In this document: positions 23,393 to 61,585 of the stretch, piece after piece | Layout: every line of letters starts with the position of its first letter | How positions within the stretch are numbered: position 1 is the first letter of the stretch | Program-made: the position numbers and the translations under genes | Notes under the pieces: generated by a model | What the model saw: the letters and a program-made list of their open reading frames with translations, nothing else | Database searches by the model: none | Told to the model about the DNA's origin: nothing | Assembly (NCBI GenBank): GCA_964532925.1 | Contig: CAZHIP010000001.1 | Coordinates: 11,227-75,226, forward strand | Source: an uncultured Gammaproteobacteria bacterium | GTDB lineage: Bacteria; Patescibacteriota; Patescibacteriia; GWA2-47-26 | Reading direction: 5' to 3' | Length of the DNA: 64,000 nucleotides

Positions 23393-23464
23393 TGCGCCTG
23401 CTTGGATTCGAACCAAGAACCAGTCGTGTATAAGACGACTGCTCTGCCGTTGAGCTACAGGCGC
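23393..23464 (-). tRNA. tRNA-Ile (anticodon UAU, predicted AUA decoder); no encoded CCA
   Basis: Reverse complement GCGCCTG-TA-GCTC-AACGGCA-GAGC-A-GTCGT-CTTATAC-ACGAC-TGGTT-CTTGG-TTCGAAT-CCAAG-CAGGCGC-A is a canonical 72-nt cloverleaf with anticodon loop CTTATAC. Confidence 0.8.
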
Positions 23465-52771: not shown

Positions 52772-53884
52772 TTACATTCGCCGCAAGGAACGCGCGACTC
52801 GGTAGAGCTTATACCACATGTTCTTGAGCGGCAAATCAAAGGCCCCAGGATACTCGACAACGTGTCCACCAAAACCCATTTTGAAACGTGTTACGCCTGG
52901 CCATTTTTGTGCATCAATGCCCCAGAAGTCGTAATAGCGGTAGCCTTCTTTGCGCGCAAAGCGCATTACTTCCCAATGCAGCATAAATGGCGCCATGAGT
53001 TGTCGAGCGTCATGGTCTGACGCGCCATGCAAGTAGGTTACTGTATCGCCAAAAAATCCTAACAGCGCGCCAGCGACCGGCTTGTCATCATCGTAGGCCA
53101 TGGCAAGTTGTACGGAGAACTTTGCGTGAGTAAGATGCTCACTATGCAAGCATGTACCCATCTTTCGGTAATACTCGGCGTCGTGCATGCGGAAACCGTT
53201 CCGGCGAGCGGTATCACTCAACATGCCAATAAATTGTTCCATGGGCTTGCCGGTCGCGGGCTCTATCACCACGCGTACTTCTTTTTTGGTCGCCAGGCGA
53301 ATATTGTAGCGTGTTTTGTCGTGCATTGCCGCAAAGAGTTTTTCGTCTGAATCAGTGAGATCAACAACCAATGTTTTTTTGGGTTGGACGGGGTCGACGG
53401 GAATACTCTTGCCAATAAGATACTTACCGCCACTGGTCTTGAGGCTTGTTGCTTCGAGTGGCTGGATGGCGCCGTAGCCACTGACACCTCGATGTAGTGG
53501 AGCAGTATTTGCAAGTGGTTCGTGGCGCCAAAATATGTCGGATGAGCGAGTACTCGTCGTCTCTAAGTGCAGTCGGATTTCCTTGAATAGATCCAAGAAT
53601 TCTGCAGCGTTCATTTCGTCCTTCATGATGGGGCCGCGTGGGCTATACCAATAGTATTTACCAAGCGGAAGCGGTAGGTGAGTGAGGCCAATGATGGCAT
53701 GGAGCGGTCCAGATTCAAGGGTTTCATGTGGAGAGAGGATGGCAAGATATGTTGCGGTGCGGCCAAGCGTATGTTGAAACTGGAGCCATTCCCAAGATTG
53801 CTGAAAAAGTCCTGTTTGGGTTGCAAGCGAGAGAAGAAAATTATTCCATGCTTGAGCGTCTTTCCATTCTGTAATGCGCAGCAT
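52772..53884 (-). CDS. FemABX-family aminoacyl-tRNA-dependent peptidyltransferase (peptidoglycan cross-bridge)
   Basis: KTRYNIRLA and TRFKMGFGG segments typical of the FemABX fold; 370 aa. Confidence 0.7.
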   Translation of the reverse strand: MLRITEWKDAQAWNNFLLSLATQTGLFQQSWEWLQFQHTLGRTATYLAILSPHETLESGPLHAIIGLTHLPLPLGKYYWYSPRGPIMKDEMNAAEFLDLFKEIRLHLETTSTRSSDIFWRHEPLANTAPLHRGVSGYGAIQPLEATSLKTSGGKYLIGKSIPVDPVQPKKTLVVDLTDSDEKLFAAMHDKTRYNIRLATKKEVRVVIEPATGKPMEQFIGMLSDTARRNGFRMHDAEYYRKMGTCLHSEHLTHAKFSVQLAMAYDDDKPVAGALLGFFGDTVTYLHGASDHDARQLMAPFMLHWEVMRFARKEGYRYYDFWGIDAQKWPGVTRFKMGFGGHVVEYPGAFDLPLKNMWYKLYRVARSLRRM

Positions 53885-53885
53885 A

Positions 53886-54479
53886 TTAGAGGACTTTCAG
53901 TGCCGCTTTAATCTTTTCTTCCACGGTGGCGCCACTCACCATAGCGAGGGCATCGCGAGCCTCGACGGCAGAGTACCCCAAGCGACGAAGTGCTTCGACG
54001 GCATCAGTGTCGATGGTGGTGATGCCTTGTTCGGAGAGGACACCTTTAAGGTCGAGGATGATTTTTTGTGCGGTCTTTTTGCCAACACCAGAAGCAGAGG
54101 TAAGGATACCGACATCGCCTTTGGCTATAGCATCACGCACGCGGTCTGACCCCAGAGAGAGGACGGTGAGACCCATTTTTGGCCCAACACCAGAAACGGA
54201 AATCAGCTTTTCAAATAAGACGAGGTCAGCCTGTTCAGTGAATCCGAAAAGGTCTCGGGCATCCTCTCGGATGTGGTCGTGCGTGTAAAGGATTATAGGC
54301 GCACCGATGGTGAGTGATTCGAGTGTAGCACTAGAAATAGAGACTTTGTAGCCAATGTCGTGAACAAGGACAATGGCGTGGTCTTTGCCTTTGTTTAGTA
54401 TGGACCCGGATAAGTAAGAGATCATATCATTATGGCCAGTATAGCACGCCCTGAAAACAAATAAACCCGCCTTTTTCAA
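53886..54479 (-). CDS. ruvA: Holliday junction DNA helicase RuvA
   Basis: N-terminal OB domain; HhH pairs (LISVSGVGPKMGLTVLS, LTSASGVGKKTAQKIIL); C-terminal RuvB-binding domain. Confidence 0.85.
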   Translation of the reverse strand: MKKAGLFVFRACYTGHNDMISYLSGSILNKGKDHAIVLVHDIGYKVSISSATLESLTIGAPIILYTHDHIREDARDLFGFTEQADLVLFEKLISVSGVGPKMGLTVLSLGSDRVRDAIAKGDVGILTSASGVGKKTAQKIILDLKGVLSEQGITTIDTDAVEALRRLGYSAVEARDALAMVSGATVEEKIKAALKVL

Positions 54480-54500: not shown

Positions 54501-57500
54501 TTAGCATTTGATGCCGATCCAGACTGGTGCGCTATCGACTTCAACGGTTGCCCCAAAGTCGGCAGGGGTTTCGGCATCAACAATTGTAATGTTTGTAGCC
54601 AATGTGCCTTTTGTGAGCTCTGCATTGAAGTGTTGTATGGCATGTACCACCATCTCATTTTCGCTCTGGATGAGAATACCAACGCGATCTTGTGGCGTAA
54701 GGCCTGCTTTTTTGCGCGTGTCGTTGATCTGGCGCGAGAGTTCGCGGACCAGCCCAAGCTCGGTGAGTTCTGGGGTGAGAACGATGTCCAAACCAACCGT
54801 GGCTTCGCTAACAGCCTTGTTGGGCCATGATTCTGGGATAGATTTCAGAAGTTCAACTTTTTGCACATTTACTTCATCGGCGACAATTTCCAAAAGTTCT
54901 TCTGAGAGTTTGGTGCCGGTAACTGCCAAAGAGGCGAGTGGTTGGCGGACCTTCATTTTGTTTTCGGCGCGCAACGAGTGTGCGGCTTCGACAATGGCAC
55001 GGACAGTGTCCATCTCGTGAACAATTGTAGTGTTCGCGTGTTTTTTGTTTGCAGTTGGCCACTCACTCAAGTGAACCGATTCTTGTTCGCCACCAACTTC
55101 TTGGTACATATGTTCTGCGAGGAATGGAGTGAACGGTGCCAAGAGTTCGGCAAGTGTTATAAGTGCGTAGCGAGTGGTGGCAAGTGCAGCATCTTTATCA
55201 GCACCTTCATCTTTGAAGCGGTCGCGTGAGCGACGCAAGTACCAGGTTGAGAGGTCGTTAATGAATGGTGCAAATAATATTGCGGCCTGACGTACTTCGT
55301 ATTTTTCAAGTGCTGTCGTGGCTTCGGCTACCAGCTCGTTCAGTTTTGCAAGAATCCAGACATCAAGCGGATGCTTCGTGCTCGGTTGTTTGTCTGTATT
55401 TTTTGTTGCGTACATTTGGTAGAACGAGAGCACGTTGCCGAGTGTCATGAGCACACGGTTCATGTCACCAACGCCGCGGTCGGAGAATCGAGATTCTTCG
55501 GCCTCAACGGATGGAGAGGTGAGGAGATAGAGGCGCAGCGCATCAGCGCCGTATTTGTTTATGATCTCTTCGGGTTCTGGATAGTTTTTGAGGCGCTTGG
55601 ACATTTTGCGACCATCTTCGGCGAGTAAGATGCCGTTGACAATACAGTTTTTGAACGATGATTTTCCAAAGAGGGCAACACTAAGCACGAGCATGGTGTA
55701 AAACCAGCCACGCGTCTGATCAATACCTTCCGCAATGAATTCGCCGGGGAAAGAATGTTCAAAACCAGCCTTGTCTTCAAATGGGTAGTGCTTTGAAGCA
55801 TACGGCATGGCACCCGATTCAAACCAGCAGTCGAGTACTTCCTCGATGCGAGTCATTGTTCCGCCGCAACTCTTCTCGCACGGCCACGTCACCGCATCAA
55901 TTACGGGGCGATGTAGGTTGATTTCGCCAGCCTCGTTTACGAGTGTACCAAGAAACGGAATCTCAATAGGTGTCGCAAACTCTGGATACGTAAGGTCCTG
56001 TACACCATGTGCCGTTTTTGCGCTCATTGCCCACAAAACCATGAGGAGTGGGTCGCCATGCGAAACAATCAAGATCGTTTCGTTTTCGTGACCAGCATCA
56101 ATTGCCTTGATTGTTGTCATCATGCGCACCACCAGTTCTGACCAGGTTTCATTTTCGCCAATCTTTTTTTGGAAGCGTTCTTCTTGGACGGAGAATTGTG
56201 ATTGGTGCGCGCTAACTGGTTTGCCGTCAAAGCCAGGTAAGTTGAATTCGTGTAATCCAGTGTTTGTTTCTACAGGTAAGCCTAATGTTTCAGCAACAAT
56301 GGTGGCAGTTTCTTGCGTGCGGAAAAATGGTGAAGCAATGATCTTGGTGACGCCTTTGGTTTTTAATTCCTCACCAGCTTTTTTTGCACGAGCCTGACCA
56401 TTTTTTGTCAGCGGATATTGAGCGCTTGTTTCAAGTGATGCACTAATAACATCTTGAGTGTTTGATTCGCTTTCACCGTGACGCATGAAGATAAACGTAT
56501 TGCGCTTGGTGGCCTTTTTGAGGAGTGTCTCGACGGATGGAACACACTCGACGTGTTTGCATTCGTTACACTGCCAGACGGGTAGCGGTGTACCCCAGTA
56601 GCGGTTACGGGAAATTGCCCAATCGCGTGCTTCGCTAATCCAGTTACCAAAACGACCGCCACCAACATGTTCGGGCACCCAGTTGATCTTTTTATTTGCC
56701 GTTACGAGGTCATCGCGCATTTCGGAGACGCGGACAAACCATGTGTCGATGGCCTTATAGAGAAGCGGGCTATCACAGCGCCAGCAGTGTGGATAGGAGT
56801 GAGTTGTTGTGGTTTTATGGAGGAGCTTTTCGCCCAGAGCCTCCATGATAAGTGGGTTGGTCTTTTTGAAAAACATGCCTTCGTATGGCGCGACAAGCTT
56901 CGTGAAGTGGCCGTTGCCATCAAGCGGATCAACCATTGGAATATGATTGGCAGAAGCGAGTTTGAAGTCATCTTCGCCAAACGCTGGAGCAATGTGGACA
57001 ATGCCCGTACCATCTGTCGTCGTGACGAAATCTGCAACGTGCACTTTGAATGCACCTTCGCTTGCTTTGTCAGCAAAGAAACCAAAGAGTGGCTCGTAGG
57101 TGATGCCAGCTAGAGTAGAGCCTTTTCGTTCTGTAAGAGCTTCGTATTCGCCAGGGAACGATGAAAGGCGATCTTTTGCTACGATGAGTTGTTCACAATT
57201 TACCACAATAGTGGTGTAAGTGATGTCAGCCCCAACCGCCAATGCCATGTTCGCAGGCAATGTCCATGGAGTGGTGGTCCAGGCTACGAGGTATGTTGGT
57301 TTCGAGAATTTTTTGTCGGTGATTTTAAATTTTACAAACACGGCCGGGTCTTGCACGTCGCGGTATGCACCTGGTTGGTTTACTTCAAAGTTTGAAAGCG
57401 GGGTTGCGCAGCGTGGGCAGTAGGGAAGCACTTTGTTGCCTTTGTAGATTTTTTTGTCTTCGTGAAGGCGTGAGAAAACCCACCAGATGGACTCCATAAA

Positions 57501-57941
57501 TGAAGCGTCCATGGTGCGGTACGGTGTACGCATATCGACCCAGCGGCCGGTGCGCTCAATAGTCTTTTCCCAATCATTTGTGTAGCGGAGCACGATAGAA
57601 CGGCATGCTTCATTAAACTTGGCCATGCCAAGCTTTTCTTCGATATCGCGTTTGCCGGAGATCTTCAAGTCTTTTTCGGTTTCGTATTCCACCGGCAATC
57701 CGTGACAATCCCAGCCCCACTGACGAGGCACGCTATAGCCCTTCATGCTCTTAAAACGCGGAATGACATCTTTTATGGTGCCAGCCAAAATATGGCCATA
57801 ATGTGGTAATCCGGTGGCAAACGGCGGGCCATCGTAAAAGACAAACTCACCGTTCGGTGACTTCTTGGTTAAGGTCTTTTCGAAGATGCCTTTTTCCTTC
57901 CAATTCGTGAGTATTTCTTGTTCGCGTTCTGGTATTGACAT
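54501..57941 (-). CDS. ileS: isoleucyl-tRNA synthetase (type 2) carrying an inserted histidine-phosphatase (PGAM-like) domain
   Basis: HIGH-class PFATGLPHYGHIL, WAISRNRYWGTPLPVW, KMSKR. Residues ~480-667 (FIFMRHGESESN ... RTQETA ... SHGD) form a histidine-phosphatase-like domain between WQCNEC and CEKSCGG, before LHRPVIDA/WFESG. Total 1146 aa. Confidence 0.9.
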   Translation of the reverse strand: MSIPEREQEILTNWKEKGIFEKTLTKKSPNGEFVFYDGPPFATGLPHYGHILAGTIKDVIPRFKSMKGYSVPRQWGWDCHGLPVEYETEKDLKISGKRDIEEKLGMAKFNEACRSIVLRYTNDWEKTIERTGRWVDMRTPYRTMDASFMESIWWVFSRLHEDKKIYKGNKVLPYCPRCATPLSNFEVNQPGAYRDVQDPAVFVKFKITDKKFSKPTYLVAWTTTPWTLPANMALAVGADITYTTIVVNCEQLIVAKDRLSSFPGEYEALTERKGSTLAGITYEPLFGFFADKASEGAFKVHVADFVTTTDGTGIVHIAPAFGEDDFKLASANHIPMVDPLDGNGHFTKLVAPYEGMFFKKTNPLIMEALGEKLLHKTTTTHSYPHCWRCDSPLLYKAIDTWFVRVSEMRDDLVTANKKINWVPEHVGGGRFGNWISEARDWAISRNRYWGTPLPVWQCNECKHVECVPSVETLLKKATKRNTFIFMRHGESESNTQDVISASLETSAQYPLTKNGQARAKKAGEELKTKGVTKIIASPFFRTQETATIVAETLGLPVETNTGLHEFNLPGFDGKPVSAHQSQFSVQEERFQKKIGENETWSELVVRMMTTIKAIDAGHENETILIVSHGDPLLMVLWAMSAKTAHGVQDLTYPEFATPIEIPFLGTLVNEAGEINLHRPVIDAVTWPCEKSCGGTMTRIEEVLDCWFESGAMPYASKHYPFEDKAGFEHSFPGEFIAEGIDQTRGWFYTMLVLSVALFGKSSFKNCIVNGILLAEDGRKMSKRLKNYPEPEEIINKYGADALRLYLLTSPSVEAEESRFSDRGVGDMNRVLMTLGNVLSFYQMYATKNTDKQPSTKHPLDVWILAKLNELVAEATTALEKYEVRQAAILFAPFINDLSTWYLRRSRDRFKDEGADKDAALATTRYALITLAELLAPFTPFLAEHMYQEVGGEQESVHLSEWPTANKKHANTTIVHEMDTVRAIVEAAHSLRAENKMKVRQPLASLAVTGTKLSEELLEIVADEVNVQKVELLKSIPESWPNKAVSEATVGLDIVLTPELTELGLVRELSRQINDTRKKAGLTPQDRVGILIQSENEMVVHAIQHFNAELTKGTLATNITIVDAETPADFGATVEVDSAPVWIGIKC

Positions 57942-58006
57942 AATGCTACAAGATTACGAGGAAAATGAGCGTACGTCAAACGCGAGTAATGGTATACTAT
58001 GTACCT

Positions 58007-58489
58007 ATGCCAACTACAAAGCGTACAAACAGCAAGTCAGTACGGCCAAAGATTTTTATTGGCGCCGATCATGCGGGGTTCAAACTCAAAGAAGCAGTAA
58101 AAAAATGGCTTTCGAAGTCAGGGTATACGGTGGTTGATTGCGGTGCGCCAACGCTTAATCCGGCAGACGATTACCCGGATTATGCCGCCAGGGTCGGCAA
58201 GAAGGTGGTGGCTACAAAAAATGCATTGGGAATTCTTGTCTGTGGATCTTCAGAAGGTGTGTGTGTGGCTGCCAATAAAGTAACAGGTATCCGTGCGGTG
58301 AATGTGTATGATGTGGATCCAGCGAAGAAAGCACGTGAACACCTCGACGCCAATGTGCTCTGTCTTTCTGGGTGGTACTTGTGGCAAAACCAGGCGCTCC
58401 AGATTACGAAGACTTGGCTCACAACCCCGTTTTCAGGAGAGGTTCGACACGTGCGGCGGATTGCTAAGATTGCAAAGCTCGAAAAATAA
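58007..58489 (+). CDS. rpiB: ribose-5-phosphate isomerase B
   Basis: KIFIGADHAGFKLKE RpiB/LacAB signature. ATG at 58007; the ORF track's upstream extension lacks support. Confidence 0.85.
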   Translation: MPTTKRTNSKSVRPKIFIGADHAGFKLKEAVKKWLSKSGYTVVDCGAPTLNPADDYPDYAARVGKKVVATKNALGILVCGSSEGVCVAANKVTGIRAVNVYDVDPAKKAREHLDANVLCLSGWYLWQNQALQITKTWLTTPFSGEVRHVRRIAKIAKLEK

Positions 58490-58490
58490 T

Positions 58491-59126
58491 ATGAAACCAG
58501 AAATTATTCCAGCGATATTAGCACACACGCCCAAGGAACTTAAAGAGCAGTGGGGGGTGTTTTCAAAAATAAAACCCGTATTCATACAAGTAGACGTGTG
58601 TGATGGCAAGTTTGCGGGCAAGAAAACCGTGAGCGTTGATGACATAAAGAAATTAAAACTGCCAAAGTTTGAAGTGGATCTTATGGTTGCAAAGCCAGCC
58701 GAGGTTGCGCTGGAGTGGATTTTGGCAGGGGCGGCACGAATTATTTTTCATATTGAATCTGTAGAAGATGCACATGTTGTGATCGACCTCTGTCGGCTTT
58801 ATAATAAAGAAGTCGGCATTGCACTAAAACCCGAAACACCCTGGAGTACGGTAGTTCCTTTTTTATCCTCCATCGATCGTGTGCAGTTTAAAGGTGTTGA
58901 ACCAGGTGCGAGTGGGCAAAAATTAAAAGATACAGTAGTCAAAAAGATTGCCGCGTTCCACGCAAAGCACCCAAAGGTAACGATTGCAGTAGATGGTGGT
59001 GTGCGGAGAGAGACCATCGAACAACTTACAGAGGCTGGTGCAAAGAGTTTTGCGGTATCGTCAGTGCTTCTTGATGCCGTGGATGCAAAAAAAGAAATAA
59101 GTGCGTTACAAAAATTAGTCAGTTGA
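58491..59126 (+). CDS. rpe: ribulose-phosphate 3-epimerase
   Basis: MKPEIIPAIL, VDVCDGKF, HIESV, GIALKPETP and VDGG segments of the Rpe TIM barrel. ATG at 58491, immediately after the rpiB stop. Confidence 0.8.
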   Translation: MKPEIIPAILAHTPKELKEQWGVFSKIKPVFIQVDVCDGKFAGKKTVSVDDIKKLKLPKFEVDLMVAKPAEVALEWILAGAARIIFHIESVEDAHVVIDLCRLYNKEVGIALKPETPWSTVVPFLSSIDRVQFKGVEPGASGQKLKDTVVKKIAAFHAKHPKVTIAVDGGVRRETIEQLTEAGAKSFAVSSVLLDAVDAKKEISALQKLVS

Positions 59127-59147
59127 TAAATTAGTAATTATCTTTAT

Positions 59148-59687
59148 ATGTTGAGCAAGTTTTATTCGGTCCTTATTGGAATCGTTATTGCCCTTACGAT
59201 GTTAGGTCTTGTCGTGGCTGGTGTAACCAAGGTGCGTATGAGTCGTCAGGCAGTGACGCCCGAAGTAGTGACTGATGTTGCTCCTGCCGCGACGTTACCG
59301 GTTGCAGAAGCTCCCGTCGTAGAAGCACCGGTAGTCGCAAATCCAGGCGATGCCGACACAGGTATTGCTATCAAAGGTTCAGTCGGTACAGAGGCGAAAG
59401 TAGAAGAACCAAAAGTACGCGACATTACGATTCTCGCAAAAAATTTCAAATTTGAGCCATCGCAAGTGAAAGTGAAAAAAGGTGAAAAAGTTACTATTAC
59501 GGTGAAGTCAGCTGAGGGCGTGCATAATTTATTTATCGGCGGCTACGATGTTCGCTCCGATGTGAAGGGGATGAGCGAGAGCGCTACGGTTTCATTTGTT
59601 GCTGACAAGACTGGCACCTTTGACATGTGGTGCGAGGTTGGTTCGCACAAAGCGTTAGGCATGACAGGGAAGTTGATTGTTGAATAA
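59148..59687 (+). CDS. membrane-anchored cupredoxin-domain (type 1 copper) protein
   Basis: TM anchor, Ala/Pro/Val-rich linker, then a cupredoxin-like C-terminus GVHNLFIGG...MWCEVGSHKALGMTG with His/Cys/His/Met ligands. Confidence 0.6.
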   Translation: MLSKFYSVLIGIVIALTMLGLVVAGVTKVRMSRQAVTPEVVTDVAPAATLPVAEAPVVEAPVVANPGDADTGIAIKGSVGTEAKVEEPKVRDITILAKNFKFEPSQVKVKKGEKVTITVKSAEGVHNLFIGGYDVRSDVKGMSESATVSFVADKTGTFDMWCEVGSHKALGMTGKLIVE

Positions 59688-59722
59688 TAAGAAAACCTTT
59701 CGACACGCTCAGGGATTATTGC

Positions 59723-60583
59723 ATGAGTCATATTCACGATACAAAAATTGCAGAGATTGAATTGATTGCGAATGAGATTCGCGAGTTGATTATTGAATCT
59801 CTGGTGGCAGCTGGTTCCGGTCATTCTGCAGGACCACTCGGTATGGCAGATATTTTTGCTGCACTGTATTTTCATGTGCTTCACCATGATCCTGAAAACC
59901 CAACATGGCCAGAACGGGATCGACTGATTTTGTCGAATGGGCATATTTGTCCAGTTCGGTATGCTGCCATGGCGCGAGCGGGCTATTTCCCGATTTGGGA
60001 GTTAAAAAGTTTGCGGAAATTCGGTTCACGATTACAAGGTCATCCAGAACGCGGGAGGCTGCCGGGGCTTGAAACGACATCTGGGCCGCTTGGTTCTGGT
60101 CTTGGGCAAGCTGCGGGTATGGCGTATGCGGCGCGGATGGATTCACAAACATGGCGAACGTATTGCGTTATGTCTGATGCAGAACAAGCATGTGGGGTTA
60201 CGTATGAAGCCATGCTGTTTGCGGGGCGTAATCGACTTTCAAATCTCGTTGGTATTATTGATCGCAACAACATTCAAATCGACGGTTTTACTGAAGATAT
60301 TATGCCGCTCGAGTCGTTGCGCGCCAAATATGAAGCTTGTAATTGGCACGTTATTGAAATCGGGGGACACAACATCGAGCAATTTATTGATGCCGTGGAA
60401 GAAGCAAAAGCCGTCTACGAAAAACCAACATGCATCATCGCCCACACCATACCTGGTCGCGGTGTTTCATTTATGGAACAAAAGTTTGAGTGGCATGGTA
60501 TTCCACCAAAACCAGAGCAGGCGAAGATTGCGCTCGCAGAGCTCAGGACTCTGGGGGGCAAAATTAAAAGTGAACACGAATAG
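59723..60583 (+). CDS. transketolase, N-terminal (TPP-binding) subunit
   Basis: GHSAGPLGMADIF...ERDRLILSNGH thiamine-diphosphate-binding region; split-transketolase arrangement. Confidence 0.85.
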   Translation: MSHIHDTKIAEIELIANEIRELIIESLVAAGSGHSAGPLGMADIFAALYFHVLHHDPENPTWPERDRLILSNGHICPVRYAAMARAGYFPIWELKSLRKFGSRLQGHPERGRLPGLETTSGPLGSGLGQAAGMAYAARMDSQTWRTYCVMSDAEQACGVTYEAMLFAGRNRLSNLVGIIDRNNIQIDGFTEDIMPLESLRAKYEACNWHVIEIGGHNIEQFIDAVEEAKAVYEKPTCIIAHTIPGRGVSFMEQKFEWHGIPPKPEQAKIALAELRTLGGKIKSEHE

Positions 60584-60589
60584 GCTTGT

Positions 60590-61585
60590 ATGGACATCAA
60601 TCAGAACATGCGGCTCAATCCGCACATATTTAACGCAGAACATTTAGAAGAGCGCCCAACCCGCGATGGGTATGGTCAGGGCTTGGTTGCTGCGGGTCAT
60701 GCAAACCAAAATCTTGTGGTGTTGTGCGCTGATCTTACGGAGTCAACGCGATCGCTGGCGTTTAAAAAAGAATTTCCTGAGCGATTTGTTCAGATGGGTG
60801 TGTCGGAGCAGTCACTCGTGGTGGTTGCCGCAGGAATGGCGCTTTCGGGGAAGGTTCCATGGGTTGCTTCCTATGCAGCGTTTTGTCCGGGTCGTGCGTG
60901 GGAGCAGATTCGTACGAGTGTTGCGTTGCAAAATGTGAATGTAAAAATTGCCGGAGCGCATGCGGGTGTATCGGTTGGCCCTGATGGCGCGACACATCAA
61001 GCACTGGAAGACATAGCCACCATGCGGGTTATGCCGAACATGGTAGTGGTCGCACCTGCTGATACGATCGAAACGCGGAAAGCGATTATTGCGGCATCCG
61101 CATACCCAGGGCCAGTGTATGTTCGGTTTACACGCGAAAAATCTCCTATTTTTACTACCGAAGAAACGCCCTTTACTATCGGGAAAGCAAATATCTTAAC
61201 AGAAGGTCGAGACGTAGCAATCGTTGCATGTGGTCCGCTCGTGCATAATGCACTTTTGGCAGCGTATGCACTCTCAAAAGAAGGAATACAGTGTCGCGTT
61301 ATCAATAATCACACCATAAAACCAATGGATGAGGCAGCTATTATTGCCGCAGCGCGAGATTGTGGTGCGATCGTTACGGTAGAAGAACATCAAGTCCACG
61401 GTGGTATGGGTTCGCGCGTCGCAGAGATTGTTACTCAGGTTGCGCCATGTCCTATGGAGTTTGTTGGTGTCCGCGATCGCTACGGTGAATCGGGTGAACC
61501 AACGGAATTGATTGAAGCTTTGGGCATGGGAGTGGGGGCAATTCAACATGCGGTGAAAACCGTCTTCGCACGGAAGCGCTCTTAG
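60590..61585 (+). CDS. transketolase, C-terminal (pyrimidine-binding) subunit
   Basis: Transketolase middle and C-terminal domains; directly follows the N-terminal subunit gene. Confidence 0.85.
   Translation: MDINQNMRLNPHIFNAEHLEERPTRDGYGQGLVAAGHANQNLVVLCADLTESTRSLAFKKEFPERFVQMGVSEQSLVVVAAGMALSGKVPWVASYAAFCPGRAWEQIRTSVALQNVNVKIAGAHAGVSVGPDGATHQALEDIATMRVMPNMVVVAPADTIETRKAIIAASAYPGPVYVRFTREKSPIFTTEETPFTIGKANILTEGRDVAIVACGPLVHNALLAAYALSKEGIQCRVINNHTIKPMDEAAIIAAARDCGAIVTVEEHQVHGGMGSRVAEIVTQVAPCPMEFVGVRDRYGESGEPTELIEALGMGVGAIQHAVKTVFARKRS

What the first reader, a model, noticed from the sequence alone, without database searches (positions are those of the whole stretch)
55940..56510. Isoleucyl-tRNA synthetase with an intact histidine-phosphatase (PGAM-like) domain inserted in its catalytic core
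The ileS translation is 1146 aa. Between the conserved WAISRNRYWGTPLPVW / CNEC zinc-knuckle half and the downstream CEKSCGG ... LHRPVIDA ... WFESG block, bacterial IleRS normally has only a short linker. Here about 190 residues are inserted that carry the full histidine-phosphatase branch-1 signature: FIFMRHGESESN (catalytic RHG), RTQETA (second Arg plus Glu) and SHGD (distal His). The insertion is in-frame, has no internal stops, and its codon usage matches the host gene. It looks like a functional fused phosphatase domain, not an intein, intron or pseudogene. A catalytically complete phosphatase embedded in an aaRS Rossmann fold is not a described IleRS architecture to my knowledge. It could act on a nucleotide/alarmone or on phosphorylated tRNA, or be regulatory.
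Basis: partly seen in the sequence, partly recalled or inferred. Interest (0 to 1): 0.85.

Follow-up and report, generated by a model that had tools for sequence, protein, structure and literature searches.

The report
Phosphatase domain nested inside isoleucyl-tRNA synthetase
The isoleucyl-tRNA synthetase of this candidate-phyla-radiation bacterium really does carry an intact histidine-phosphatase enzyme inside one of its surface loops, and the same undescribed arrangement is conserved across many related uncultured species, though what the phosphatase acts on is unknown.

Summary
ORF 54501..57941 (-) encodes a 1146-aa type-2 IleRS (TIGR00392, 906 bits). A Pfam His_Phos_1 domain (aa 484-646, E 6e-30) lies between the two halves of tRNA-synt_1.

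The insert (aa ~474-675) sits inside the CP3 connective-peptide zinc knuckle (C458/C461 ... C688/C692), not in the active site. The proton-donor Glu is E565, not the Glu of RTQETA.

It is not an artefact and not unique:
- The identical protein was assembled from two separate sequencing runs.
- At least 188 clusters (50% identity) span both junctions.
- A scan of species genomes found 547 relatives, and every named record is Patescibacteria/Parcubacteria.

R487, H488, R541, E565 and H628 are invariant in 116 of 116 insert-bearing homologues. Insert and core distances co-vary (r = 0.75).

Other findings point to a modular passenger:
- Some nested relatives in syntenic loci lack the insert cleanly.
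- Other lineages carry 2 to at least 4 copies or use a second insertion site.
- Some IleRS also carry nested NUDIX, GNAT or P-loop domains.

The nearest folds are small phosphatases (Rv2419c, PhoE, phosphoserine phosphatases). The nearest sequences are free-standing ~190-aa Patescibacteria phosphatases.

Best reading: a bifunctional IleRS carrying an active, autonomous phosphomonoesterase of unknown substrate. I found no paper describing it. Verdict: a new variant of a known kind, interest 0.64.

The parts
54501..57941 (-). ileS coding sequence, 1146 aa plus stop: type-2 (eukaryote-like) isoleucyl-tRNA synthetase with a nested phosphatase domain
   Evidence: ORF list. TIGR00392 scores 905.7 bits, above the cut-off of 621.4. 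The best solved relatives are type-2/cytoplasmic IleRS. The AF2 model has pLDDT 92.9 and pTM 0.86.
56523..57941 (-). N-terminal part, aa 1-473: first half of the Rossmann fold (HYGH at 57792-57803), CP core with zinc site 1 (C175, C178, C386, C389), CP1 editing domain (WTTTPWT at aa 221-227), CP2, and the first strands and helix of CP3
   Evidence: Pfam tRNA-synt_1 stretch 10-481. Motif positions. Invariant columns H47, C175, C178, T222-T224, W226, H316, D325, C386, C389.
56559..56570 (-). First half of the CP3 zinc knuckle, C458-N-E-C461
   Evidence: The Cys residues are conserved in 106-108 of 120 homologues. The T. thermophilus CP3 carries a zinc motif at the equivalent place (PMC7191050).
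55917..56522 (-). The nested insert with its linkers, aa 474-675. It is absent from insert-less relatives, whose sequence joins ...GSxEEL directly to DLH(R/K)...
   Evidence: Junction alignment. Insert lengths are 200-230 aa in 116 homologues and 22 aa in 4. The insert-only AF2 model has pLDDT 94.1.
56004..56492 (-). Pfam His_Phos_1 (PF00300) match, aa 484-646
   Evidence: E 5.9e-30, 104.8 bits. Foldseek TM 0.75-0.79 to Rv2419c, PhoE and phosphoserine phosphatases.
56475..56483 (-). R487-H488-G489: phosphate-binding Arg and the nucleophilic His
   Evidence: Aligns to RHG of PhoE. R and H are invariant in 116 of 116.
56319..56321 (-). R541, the second phosphate-binding Arg (SPFFRTQETA)
   Evidence: Aligns to the Arg of SGRALETA in PhoE. 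Invariant in 116 of 116.
56247..56249 (-). E565, the proton-donor Glu (GLHEFNLPGFDG)
   Evidence: Aligns to the Glu of RLREIHLGDWEG in PhoE. Invariant in 116 of 116. It is E or D in nearly all of the 162 further domain copies examined.
56058..56060 (-). H628, the second (distal) catalytic His (IVSHGDP)
   Evidence: Aligns to the His of VTHG in PhoE. Invariant in 116 of 116.
55866..55880 (-). Second half of the CP3 zinc knuckle, C688-EKS-C692
   Evidence: The Cys residues are conserved in 108 of 120.
54501..55916 (-). C-terminal part, aa 676-1146: rest of CP3, second half of the Rossmann fold (WFESG; KMSKR at 55593-55607), anticodon-binding domain and the type-2 C-terminal domains
   Evidence: Pfam tRNA-synt_1 second stretch, Anticodon_1 860-1002 and DUF5915 983-1126. 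K779 and K782 are invariant.

Best explanation
The gene encodes a bifunctional protein. One part is a complete, working type-2 IleRS with the synthetic site, CP1 editing site and both zinc knuckles intact. Its CP3 connective-peptide zinc knuckle hosts a separately folding, catalytically competent branch-1 histidine phosphatase of about 190 aa.

The module descends from a family of free-standing ~190-aa Patescibacteria phosphatases that share the motif N-x-Y-F-x-x-RHGE ... SHGDPLW. In the lineages sampled, insert and core have diverged together, which fits one old capture followed by vertical inheritance. Selection has kept its phosphoryl-transfer residues (R487, H488, N494, R541, E565, H628).

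I infer that it works as an autonomous phosphomonoesterase on a small phosphorylated metabolite, in the manner of PhoE, Rv2419c or phosphoserine phosphatase: phospho-His488 intermediate, with E565 as the acid/base. On this reading IleRS serves mainly as an essential, constitutively expressed carrier, and the phosphatase is not required for aminoacylation.

What is shown: the architecture, its age and spread, conservation of the catalytic residues, the fold, and its modular gain, loss and duplication. What is inferred: actual catalysis, the substrate class, and independence from the IleRS reaction.
For: Architecture and fold:
- Pfam and NCBIfam matches.
- AF2 full model, pLDDT 92.9 and pTM 0.86, with the insert blocks at 91-98.
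- Insert-only model, pLDDT 94.1.
- Foldseek top hits are small phosphatases (Rv2419c glucosyl-3-phosphoglycerate phosphatase, PhoE, Hydrogenobacter and Entamoeba phosphoserine phosphatases), TM 0.75-0.79.
- The IleRS body superposes on IleRS2, yeast and T. thermophilus IleRS with target-normalised TM 0.82-0.90.

Reality and spread:
- The identical protein occurs in two independent assemblies.
- More than 100 clusters at 90% identity carry PF00300 inside IleRS.
- 188 clusters at 50% identity match the junction-spanning query at E <= 1e-30. All 150 listed contain the domain.
- 547 stretches in GTDB species genomes encode a relative of the insert. In the best 80 loci the RHG motif sits in ORFs that are mostly longer than 1000 aa.

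Selection:
- The five catalytic residues are invariant in 116 of 116 homologues, while the insert averages only 43% pairwise identity.
- The pattern RHNREH occurs in 133 of 163 aligned domain sequences (162 copies plus the window's own).

Vertical history: core and insert distances correlate, r = 0.75, Mantel p about 0.001.

Origin: the nearest non-fused sequences are ~190-aa Patescibacteria phosphatases that share the subfamily motifs.

Modularity and dispensability for IleRS:
- Insert-less IleRS (P0020 and others) sit in a syntenic locus and nest among insert-bearing sequences in a neighbour-joining tree.
- Some lineages have 2 to at least 4 copies, or a copy at a second site.
- Other small housekeeping-type enzyme domains (NUDIX, GNAT, P-loop) are nested in the same IleRS scaffold in other lineages.
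- aaRSs are known to be preferred hosts for domain insertion (PMC13114784).

Charge: the insert is mildly acidic (window -5; mean -2.6). It is therefore not an obvious RNA-binding surface.
Against: - No activity or substrate has been measured.
- The same domain family has entered IleRS at two different loops. It is retained, with catalytic residues, in every copy of multi-copy proteins whose copies are only 24-36% identical. This looks like selection for physical linkage to IleRS, not passive hitch-hiking.
- The C-terminal linker is well conserved (F-x-P-x-PHN-x-x-YELD). The whole-protein pTM is high. Both suggest a fixed orientation on the synthetase.
- One free-standing relative lies 0.7 kb from a LeuRS that carries a nested NUDIX domain.
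- I could not obtain model coordinates. The distance and orientation of the phosphatase pocket relative to the tRNA path and the synthetic site are therefore unknown.
- The inference of secondary loss rests on a rough, midpoint-rooted neighbour-joining tree.
Confidence: 0.5

Rival explanations
1. A cis-acting, IleRS-coupled activity. The phosphatase works on a substrate or product of the synthetase itself. One option is removing 3'-phosphate or 2',3'-cyclic-phosphate or 2'-phosphate groups from damaged tRNA ends so that they can be charged. Another is hydrolysing a nucleotide made at the synthetic site (AMP, or products derived from Ap4A).
For: - Recurrent, independent placement of the same domain family in two IleRS loops, with multi-copy variants that all keep the catalytic residues.
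- Conserved linkers and a high whole-protein pTM.
- The co-nested domains in other lineages belong to families that include RNA- or nucleotide-acting members: NUDIX, a P-loop kinase-like domain with a weak match to Pnkp1 (E 0.057), and GNAT.
- A free-standing relative lies next to a NUDIX-bearing LeuRS.
- PhoE-type enzymes accept nucleotides such as AMP. This rests on my own knowledge of Rigden et al. 2001, which I did not check here.
Against: - To my knowledge no branch-1 histidine phosphatase is known to act on polynucleotide ends.
- The insert is acidic on average.
- It is cleanly absent in nested, syntenic relatives.
- CP3 is described as lying on the opposite side from CP2 and merely connecting to the second Rossmann half. 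No tRNA contact is reported for it in the papers read.
- The matches of the NUDIX and P-loop domains are generic or non-significant.
Confidence: 0.2
2. The nested domain is the lineage's phosphoglycerate mutase (a short, archaeal-type dPGM) or another missing central-metabolism enzyme. It would fill a gap in lower glycolysis in Parcubacteria.
For: - Among the His_Phos families in NCBIfam, the best match is archaeal dPGM NF038349 (96.4 bits, E 2e-27).
- Jaffe et al. 2020 report PGM absent from several shallow Parcubacteria clades, possibly because it is too divergent to detect (PMC7304191).
- The gene sits head-to-head with a pentose-phosphate cluster (RpiB, Rpe, split transketolase).
Against: - The score is far below the family cut-off (96.4 against 225).
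- The structural neighbours are led by phosphatases, not by the 230-250-aa mutases.
- Copy numbers of 2 to at least 4, and clean loss in relatives, are odd for a single glycolytic step.
- The presence or absence of other PGM genes in these genomes was not tested.
Confidence: 0.12
3. A regulatory module. The domain senses a phosphorylated metabolite, or acts as a phosphoprotein or phosphohistidine phosphatase (like SixA or PGAM5), and tunes IleRS activity or reports translation status.
For: - The position inside a connective peptide next to the second Rossmann half could transmit conformational change. This is inference only.
- The superfamily includes protein phosphatases.
- There is a weak SixA match (27.8 bits).
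Against: - The SixA score is below its cut-off (27.8 against 74.5).
- Complete retention of the acid/base and both Arg residues is more typical of true small-molecule enzymes.
- Tandem amplification, and dispensability in relatives, do not fit an integrated allosteric switch.
Confidence: 0.08
4. An artefact: an assembly chimera or a frameshift that joins separate genes, or an intein or other mobile insertion.
For: The GC3 of the insert is lower than that of the rest of the gene (0.426 against 0.525).
Against: - The reading frame is continuous.
- The protein is identical in two independent run assemblies.
- Homologues with the same junctions come from many samples and assemblers.
- No intein or endonuclease family is hit.
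- Both IleRS flanks are conserved and in frame.
Confidence: 0.01

Closest known systems
Type-2 (eukaryote-like, mupirocin-resistant type) IleRS, e.g. Priestia megaterium IleRS2 (8C8V), T. thermophilus IleRS (1ILE), yeast IleRS (8WND)
   Same: Full set of domains: Rossmann fold with HxGH and KMSKx, CP core and CP1 editing domain, CP2, CP3, anticodon-binding domain and type-2 C-terminal domains. Zinc-knuckle cysteines occur in the CP core and CP3 as in T. thermophilus. Target-normalised TM is 0.82-0.90.
   Different: About 200 extra residues that form a complete enzyme domain are nested inside the CP3 zinc knuckle. No solved or described IleRS has this.
Small branch-1 histidine phosphatases: PhoE/YhfR of Geobacillus stearothermophilus (1H2E), mycobacterial glucosyl-3-phosphoglycerate phosphatase Rv2419c (4PZ9, 6S2Q), Hydrogenobacter and Entamoeba phosphoserine phosphatases (4IJ5, 6M1X)
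   Same: Size of about 190-210 aa, the alpha/beta fold, and all catalytic residues (RHG, N, R, E, H). TM is 0.75-0.79.
   Different: Only 18-23% identity. None of their NCBIfam equivalog cut-offs is reached, so the substrate cannot be transferred. Those enzymes are free-standing and this one is nested in another enzyme.
Free-standing ~190-aa histidine phosphatases of Patescibacteria (P0001-P0015)
   Same: They are the closest sequences outside IleRS (about 30-37% identity). They share subfamily motifs such as N-x-Y-F-x-x-RHGE and SHGDPLW-x-LE and come from the same phylum.
   Different: They are separate genes with no conserved informative neighbourhood. They lack the linkers (KK-rich N-linker; PHN..YELD C-linker) that tie the domain into CP3.
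NF040702 'ileS_w_GNAT': IleRS with an N-acetyltransferase domain (an NCBIfam exception model)
   Same: It is a precedent that curators have recognised bacterial IleRS carrying an extra enzyme domain. GNAT domains also co-occur with the phosphatase in some Patescibacteria IleRS (P0225, P0248).
   Different: The window protein has no GNAT domain and scores 334.6 against a cut-off of 1999. The extra domain here is a phosphatase.
Rv2228c-type bifunctional RNase H / CobC-like acid phosphatase (NF005567)
   Same: A branch-1 histidine phosphatase fused to an enzyme of nucleic-acid metabolism. There is a weak match of 67.8 bits.
   Different: That protein is an end-to-end fusion, not a nested insertion, and has a different partner. 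The score is far below its cut-off of 326.

Membership tests
Histidine phosphatase superfamily, branch 1 (Pfam PF00300) | The profile match exceeds the curated gathering score | tested here: met
   104.8 bits against 21.7, E 5.9e-30, aa 484-646.
Histidine phosphatase superfamily, branch 1 (Pfam PF00300) | Catalytic set: RHG nucleophile His, two phosphate-binding Arg, proton-donor Glu/Asp and a second His | tested here: met
   R487, H488, R541, E565 and H628 align with PhoE. They are invariant in 116 of 116 homologues.
Histidine phosphatase superfamily, branch 1 (Pfam PF00300) | The alpha/beta fold of the superfamily | tested here: met
   Insert-only AF2 model, pLDDT 94.1. Foldseek probability 1.00 and TM 0.75-0.79 to solved members.
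Histidine phosphatase superfamily, branch 1 (Pfam PF00300) | Phosphatase or mutase activity through a phospho-histidine intermediate | not testable with these tools
   This needs enzyme assays with wild type and H488A.
Isoleucine--tRNA ligase (NCBIfam TIGR00392 ileS), type 2 | The equivalog score exceeds the curated cut-off | tested here: met
   905.7 against 621.4, in two stretches that flank the insert.
Isoleucine--tRNA ligase (NCBIfam TIGR00392 ileS), type 2 | Class I signature motifs HxGH and KMSKS, and the CP1 editing motifs | tested here: met
   HYGH 47, KMSKR 779, WTTTPWT 221-227 and GTGIVH 311-316. They are invariant across homologues.
Isoleucine--tRNA ligase (NCBIfam TIGR00392 ileS), type 2 | Type-2 C-terminal organisation and closest similarity to IleRS2/eukaryotic enzymes, not to type 1 | tested here: met
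   DUF5915 at aa 983-1126. PDB ranking puts cytoplasmic, IleRS2 and T. thermophilus enzymes at 710-757 bits and type 1 at about 350 bits or less. The Foldseek order agrees.
Cofactor-dependent phosphoglycerate mutase (NF038349 archaeal dPGM; GpmB NF002901; PRK01295) | The equivalog score exceeds the curated cut-off | tested here: not met
   96.4 against 225, 53.2 against 261 and 27.1 against 316.
Specific small histidine phosphatases (CobC TIGR03162, PspA NF045917, SixA TIGR00249, MSMEG_4193 TIGR03848) | The equivalog or subfamily score exceeds the curated cut-off | tested here: not met
   56.2 against 162.9, 44.7 against 350, 27.8 against 74.5 and 49.7 against 203.85.
IleRS with GNAT domain (NF040702) | Score above the cut-off and presence of an acetyltransferase domain | tested here: not met
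   334.6 against 1999. There is no GNAT Pfam hit in the window protein.
Intein or mobile insertion | Hint/intein splicing domain or homing endonuclease, with Cys/Ser/Thr at the junctions | tested here: not met
   No such Pfam family at E <= 0.01. The inserted segment is fully accounted for by a His_Phos fold.

The most novel reading that the evidence does not exclude
The phosphatase is mechanistically coupled to the synthetase. It would be a third catalytic site on IleRS, beside synthesis and editing. It could heal phosphorylated tRNA 3' ends before charging, or process an adenylate-derived nucleotide. In that case Patescibacteria class Ia synthetases with nested His_Phos, NUDIX, GNAT or P-loop domains would be a previously unrecognised family of multi-enzyme tRNA or nucleotide quality-control machines.
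Probability: 0.17. Interest if true: 0.9.

Novelty: new variant of a known kind. Interest (0 to 1): 0.64.

Why it matters
Extra domains on aminoacyl-tRNA synthetases are regarded mainly as a eukaryotic theme tied to non-translational functions. Bacterial enzymes are thought to be architecturally conservative.

Here a complete second enzyme is nested in an essential synthetase across a very large group of uncultured, genome-reduced bacteria. The arrangement shows repeated duplication, a second insertion site, and companion NUDIX, GNAT and P-loop insertions.

If the phosphatase acts independently, this shows how minimal genomes use an essential gene as a carrier for accessory enzymes. It would also matter for metabolic reconstructions of the candidate phyla radiation, where such embedded enzymes are easily missed or miscounted. 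NCBI currently labels these proteins only as 'class I tRNA ligase family protein'.

If the phosphatase acts on tRNA or on adenylate-derived nucleotides, it would be a new catalytic activity coupled to tRNA charging. Either way, the protein is directly testable by expression.

Tried and rejected
- Homologue search with the insert alone. It returned only free-standing phosphatases and missed even the identical protein. I treat this as a limitation of the word index, not as evidence of rarity. The full-length search and the exhaustive junction-spanning search corrected it.
- AFDB50 fold search of the full model. The library was unavailable.
- Genome scan with the diverse alignment A2. I repeated it with the closer alignment A3.
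- First tree script. It timed out, so I re-implemented it. The tree is only neighbour-joining with midpoint rooting, so 'secondary loss' is tentative.
- Neighbourhoods of free-standing relatives P0007 and P0005. No informative or conserved context. P0014 gave a single suggestive case next to a NUDIX-bearing LeuRS.
- A second His_Phos gene in the 64-kb window. None was found with a family HMM over all ORFs of at least 80 aa. This says nothing about the rest of the genome.
- Typing the companion domains. The P-loop domain has no significant solved relative (best E 0.02-0.06). The NUDIX domain is of the generic MutT/ADP-ribose pyrophosphatase type. Neither gives a functional pointer.
- Geometry of the phosphatase pocket relative to the tRNA path. 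This was not possible, because the tools return no model coordinates and the papers read do not describe tRNA contacts of CP3.
- Intein, pseudogene, frameshift and assembly chimera. All rejected.
- dPGM, CobC, PspA and SixA membership. All rejected on the curated cut-offs.
- Literature. Six searches and targeted reading found no description of a phosphatase in IleRS.
Full report
**1. What is in the sequence**

The minus-strand ORF 54501..57941 is uninterrupted and encodes 1146 aa. The finding's coordinates 55940-56510 correspond to aa 478-668.

Pfam splits tRNA-synt_1 (E 1e-140) into two stretches. Between them it places His_Phos_1 at aa 484-646 (E 5.9e-30, 104.8 bits, cut-off 21.7). NCBIfam calls the whole protein ileS (TIGR00392, 905.7 bits against 621.4), also in two stretches.

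The best solved relatives are eukaryotic cytoplasmic IleRS, Priestia megaterium IleRS2 and Thermus thermophilus IleRS at 710-757 bits. Type-1 enzymes score about 350 bits or less. In the alignment to human IleRS, query 473 pairs with residue 488 and query 675 with residue 498. About 200 residues are therefore extra.

**2. Where the insert sits**

The flanking cysteines C458/C461 and C688/C692 are conserved in about 108 of 120 homologues. In my recollection they correspond to the second zinc site of T. thermophilus IleRS.

In the domain scheme used for Candida albicans IleRS, this region is the CP3 subdomain (residues 473-534). [quoted passage not shown] So the phosphatase is nested inside a connective-peptide zinc knuckle on the surface of the Rossmann domain, not in the active site. 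Insert-less relatives join ...GSxEEL directly to DLH(R/K)..., which fixes the boundaries at about aa 474 and 675.

**3. Is it real?**

The identical 1146-aa protein is encoded on contigs assembled independently from two sequencing runs, with the same neighbours. No intein or endonuclease family is hit.

Synonymous codon usage of the insert is within about 1 sd of other blocks of the gene. Its GC3 is lower, 0.426 against 0.525.

An AlphaFold2 model of the whole protein is very confident (pLDDT 92.9, pTM 0.86, insert blocks 91-98). It superposes on IleRS2, yeast and T. thermophilus IleRS with target-normalised TM 0.82-0.90.

**4. It is a clade-wide architecture**

- A full-length homologue search returned more than 100 clusters of 1140-1235-aa IleRS that carry PF00300, at 45-48% identity. 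Where named, they come from Patescibacteria: Paceibacterota, and Niyogi-, Lloyd-, Yonath- and Zambryskibacteria.
- An exhaustive HMMER search with a 297-aa junction-spanning query found 188 representatives of 50%-identity clusters at E <= 1e-30. All 150 listed contain the domain.
The 80 best loci carry Patescibacteria/Parcubacteria-type names or generic labels such as 'bacterium' and 'uncultured bacterium'. Many automated bins are labelled 'uncultured Candidatus Saccharibacteria'. The named groups are Yonath-, Nomura-, Lloyd-, Taylor-, Vogel-, Kaiser-, Adler- and Campbellbacteria and Minisyncoccia.
- In those loci the RHG motif lies in ORFs that are mostly longer than 1000 aa. The shortest, 314 aa, is in a 2.5-kb contig.

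NCBI names these proteins only 'class I tRNA ligase family protein'.

**5. Selection on the phosphatase**

Alignment to PhoE identifies the catalytic set as R487, H488, N494, R541, E565 and H628. The proton donor is therefore E565, not the Glu of RTQETA.

R487, H488, R541, E565 and H628 are invariant in all 116 insert-bearing homologues, and N494 is kept in 111. Yet the insert averages only 43% pairwise identity, against 65% for the catalytic core and 47% for the anticodon/C-terminal region.

Among 163 aligned domain sequences (162 copies from the 50%-cluster representatives plus the window's own), 133 have the full pattern. Most exceptions are at the Asn or are Glu-to-Asp changes.

Core and insert distances are correlated (r = 0.75, Mantel p about 0.001). 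This indicates that the two have diverged together.

**6. What kind of phosphatase**

The insert-only model (pLDDT 94.1) matches best the short phosphatase-type members of the superfamily. These are mycobacterial glucosyl-3-phosphoglycerate phosphatase Rv2419c, PhoE, and the Hydrogenobacter and Entamoeba phosphoserine phosphatases (TM 0.75-0.79, 18-23% identity). They rank ahead of the 230-250-aa mutases.

No specific NCBIfam family reaches its cut-off: archaeal dPGM 96 against 225, CobC 56 against 163, PspA 45 against 350, SixA 28 against 75. The substrate therefore cannot be assigned by homology.

The nearest non-fused sequences are ~190-aa Patescibacteria phosphatases. They share subfamily motifs (N-x-Y-F-x-x-RHGE; SHGDPLW-x-LE). 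This suggests that the domain was captured within the phylum.

**7. Modularity**

- Four IleRS (P0020, P0072, P0088, P0127) lack the insert cleanly. The P0020 locus is syntenic with the window: RpiB-Rpe-transketolase on one side, RuvA-FemAB on the other. In a rough neighbour-joining tree of the core, these four group with insert-bearing P0019 as sister to the window protein and P0017, inside the insert-bearing majority. Secondary loss is therefore the simplest reading, but it is tentative.
- Twelve representatives carry two or more copies. Some copies are tandem at the CP3 site. P0195 has two, and P0209 has at least four and appears to be cut short.
- In P0153, P0181 and P0258 a second copy sits at a different site. 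That site corresponds to window aa ~845-851, a loop at the start of the anticodon-binding domain.
- P0215 has a copy only at that second site and none in CP3.
- Copies within one protein are only 24-36% identical, yet they nearly all keep the catalytic residues.
- Other lineages add further nested enzyme domains to the same IleRS. P0182 has a NUDIX domain inside CP1. P0225 and P0248 have GNAT domains. P0283 has a P-loop kinase-like domain after WFESG.
- One free-standing relative lies 0.7 kb from a LeuRS with a nested NUDIX domain.

**8. Interpretation**

The IleRS part has every feature of a working enzyme, with the synthetic and editing motifs invariant. The phosphatase is very probably active.

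Several observations favour an autonomous small-molecule phosphomonoesterase that uses an essential, constitutively expressed gene as a carrier (confidence about 0.5):
- It can be lost, duplicated and placed at another loop.
- Unrelated housekeeping-type domains use the same scaffold.
- aaRSs are generally good hosts for insertions (PMC13114784).
- The insert is acidic, not basic.

Other observations keep a synthetase-coupled role alive (about 0.2):
- The same family has been recruited to IleRS repeatedly.
- Every copy is retained with its catalytic residues.
- The linkers are conserved.
- The whole-protein pTM is confident.

A missing-PGM role is a lead from the archaeal-dPGM similarity and from the reported patchiness of PGM in Parcubacteria (PMC7304191). 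It fails the family cut-off and fits the copy-number variation poorly (about 0.12). A purely regulatory role is less likely (about 0.08). An artefact is excluded.

**9. Novelty**

Six literature searches and targeted reading found no description of a phosphatase in IleRS (21, 51, 52, 53, 72). One paper read was a 2026 preprint that annotated the domain architectures of 96,219 IleRS sequences.

NCBIfam does recognise a GNAT-bearing IleRS (NF040702). Extra enzyme domains on bacterial IleRS are therefore not unheard of.

I rate this a new variant of a known kind: a synthetase with an accreted domain. It is notable for its phylogenetic breadth and for the nested, catalytically intact partner.

Noticed in passing
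window 23393-23464 (-): A tRNA-Ile gene with anticodon TAT (UAU) and no encoded CCA. From my own knowledge, bacteria usually read AUA with a lysidine-modified CAU tRNA. A UAU tRNA-Ile alongside a eukaryote-like type-2 IleRS is therefore worth a look. Seen; sequence read.
   Followed up: partly
L087 2659-6807 (P0182); L086 6001-10686 (P0225); P0248; P0283: Other Patescibacteria IleRS carry further nested enzyme domains besides the phosphatase. P0182 has a NUDIX domain inside the CP1/editing region. P0225 and P0248 have GNAT domains. P0283 has a P-loop kinase-like (AAA_18/AAA_33) domain inserted after the WFESG motif. The NUDIX domain is of the generic MutT/ADP-ribose pyrophosphatase type. The P-loop domain has no significant solved relative.
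   Followed up: partly
P0215, P0181, P0153, P0258 (site equivalent to window aa ~845-851, roughly 55390-55410); P0195, P0209: The same phosphatase family also occurs at a second insertion site, at the start of the anticodon-binding domain. It occurs there alone (P0215) or together with the CP3 copy. At the CP3 site it can be tandem, with two to at least four copies. Copies within one protein are only 24-36% identical.
   Followed up: partly
L089 7630-8220 and 8898-11756: A free-standing histidine phosphatase of the same subfamily (P0014) lies about 0.7 kb upstream of a 952-aa LeuRS. That LeuRS has a NUDIX domain nested at aa 385-510.
   Followed up: partly
window 57965-61585 (+) and 52772-54479 (-); L003: ileS is flanked head-to-head by a pentose-phosphate cluster: RpiB, ribulose-phosphate 3-epimerase, a cupredoxin-like protein, and a transketolase split into two genes. 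Downstream lie RuvA and a FemAB-family protein. The order is conserved in the locus of the insert-less relative P0020.
   Followed up: partly
window 55917-56522: The insert has lower third-position GC (0.426) than any same-size block in the rest of the gene (0.45-0.58, mean 0.524). Its synonymous codon preferences are otherwise similar.
   Followed up: yes
P0225 cluster: Members of the GNAT-plus-phosphatase IleRS cluster are recorded on contigs of up to 2.1 Mb. As far as I know, that is larger than typical genomes of the candidate phyla radiation. The organism was not identified.
   Followed up: no
database annotation of P0029, P0030, P0034, P0271, P0229 and others: NCBI's pipeline names these insert-bearing IleRS only 'class I tRNA ligase family protein', not isoleucine--tRNA ligase. 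Insert-less relatives are named correctly. This may distort automated counts of aaRS or of phosphatase/PGM genes in these genomes.
   Followed up: no
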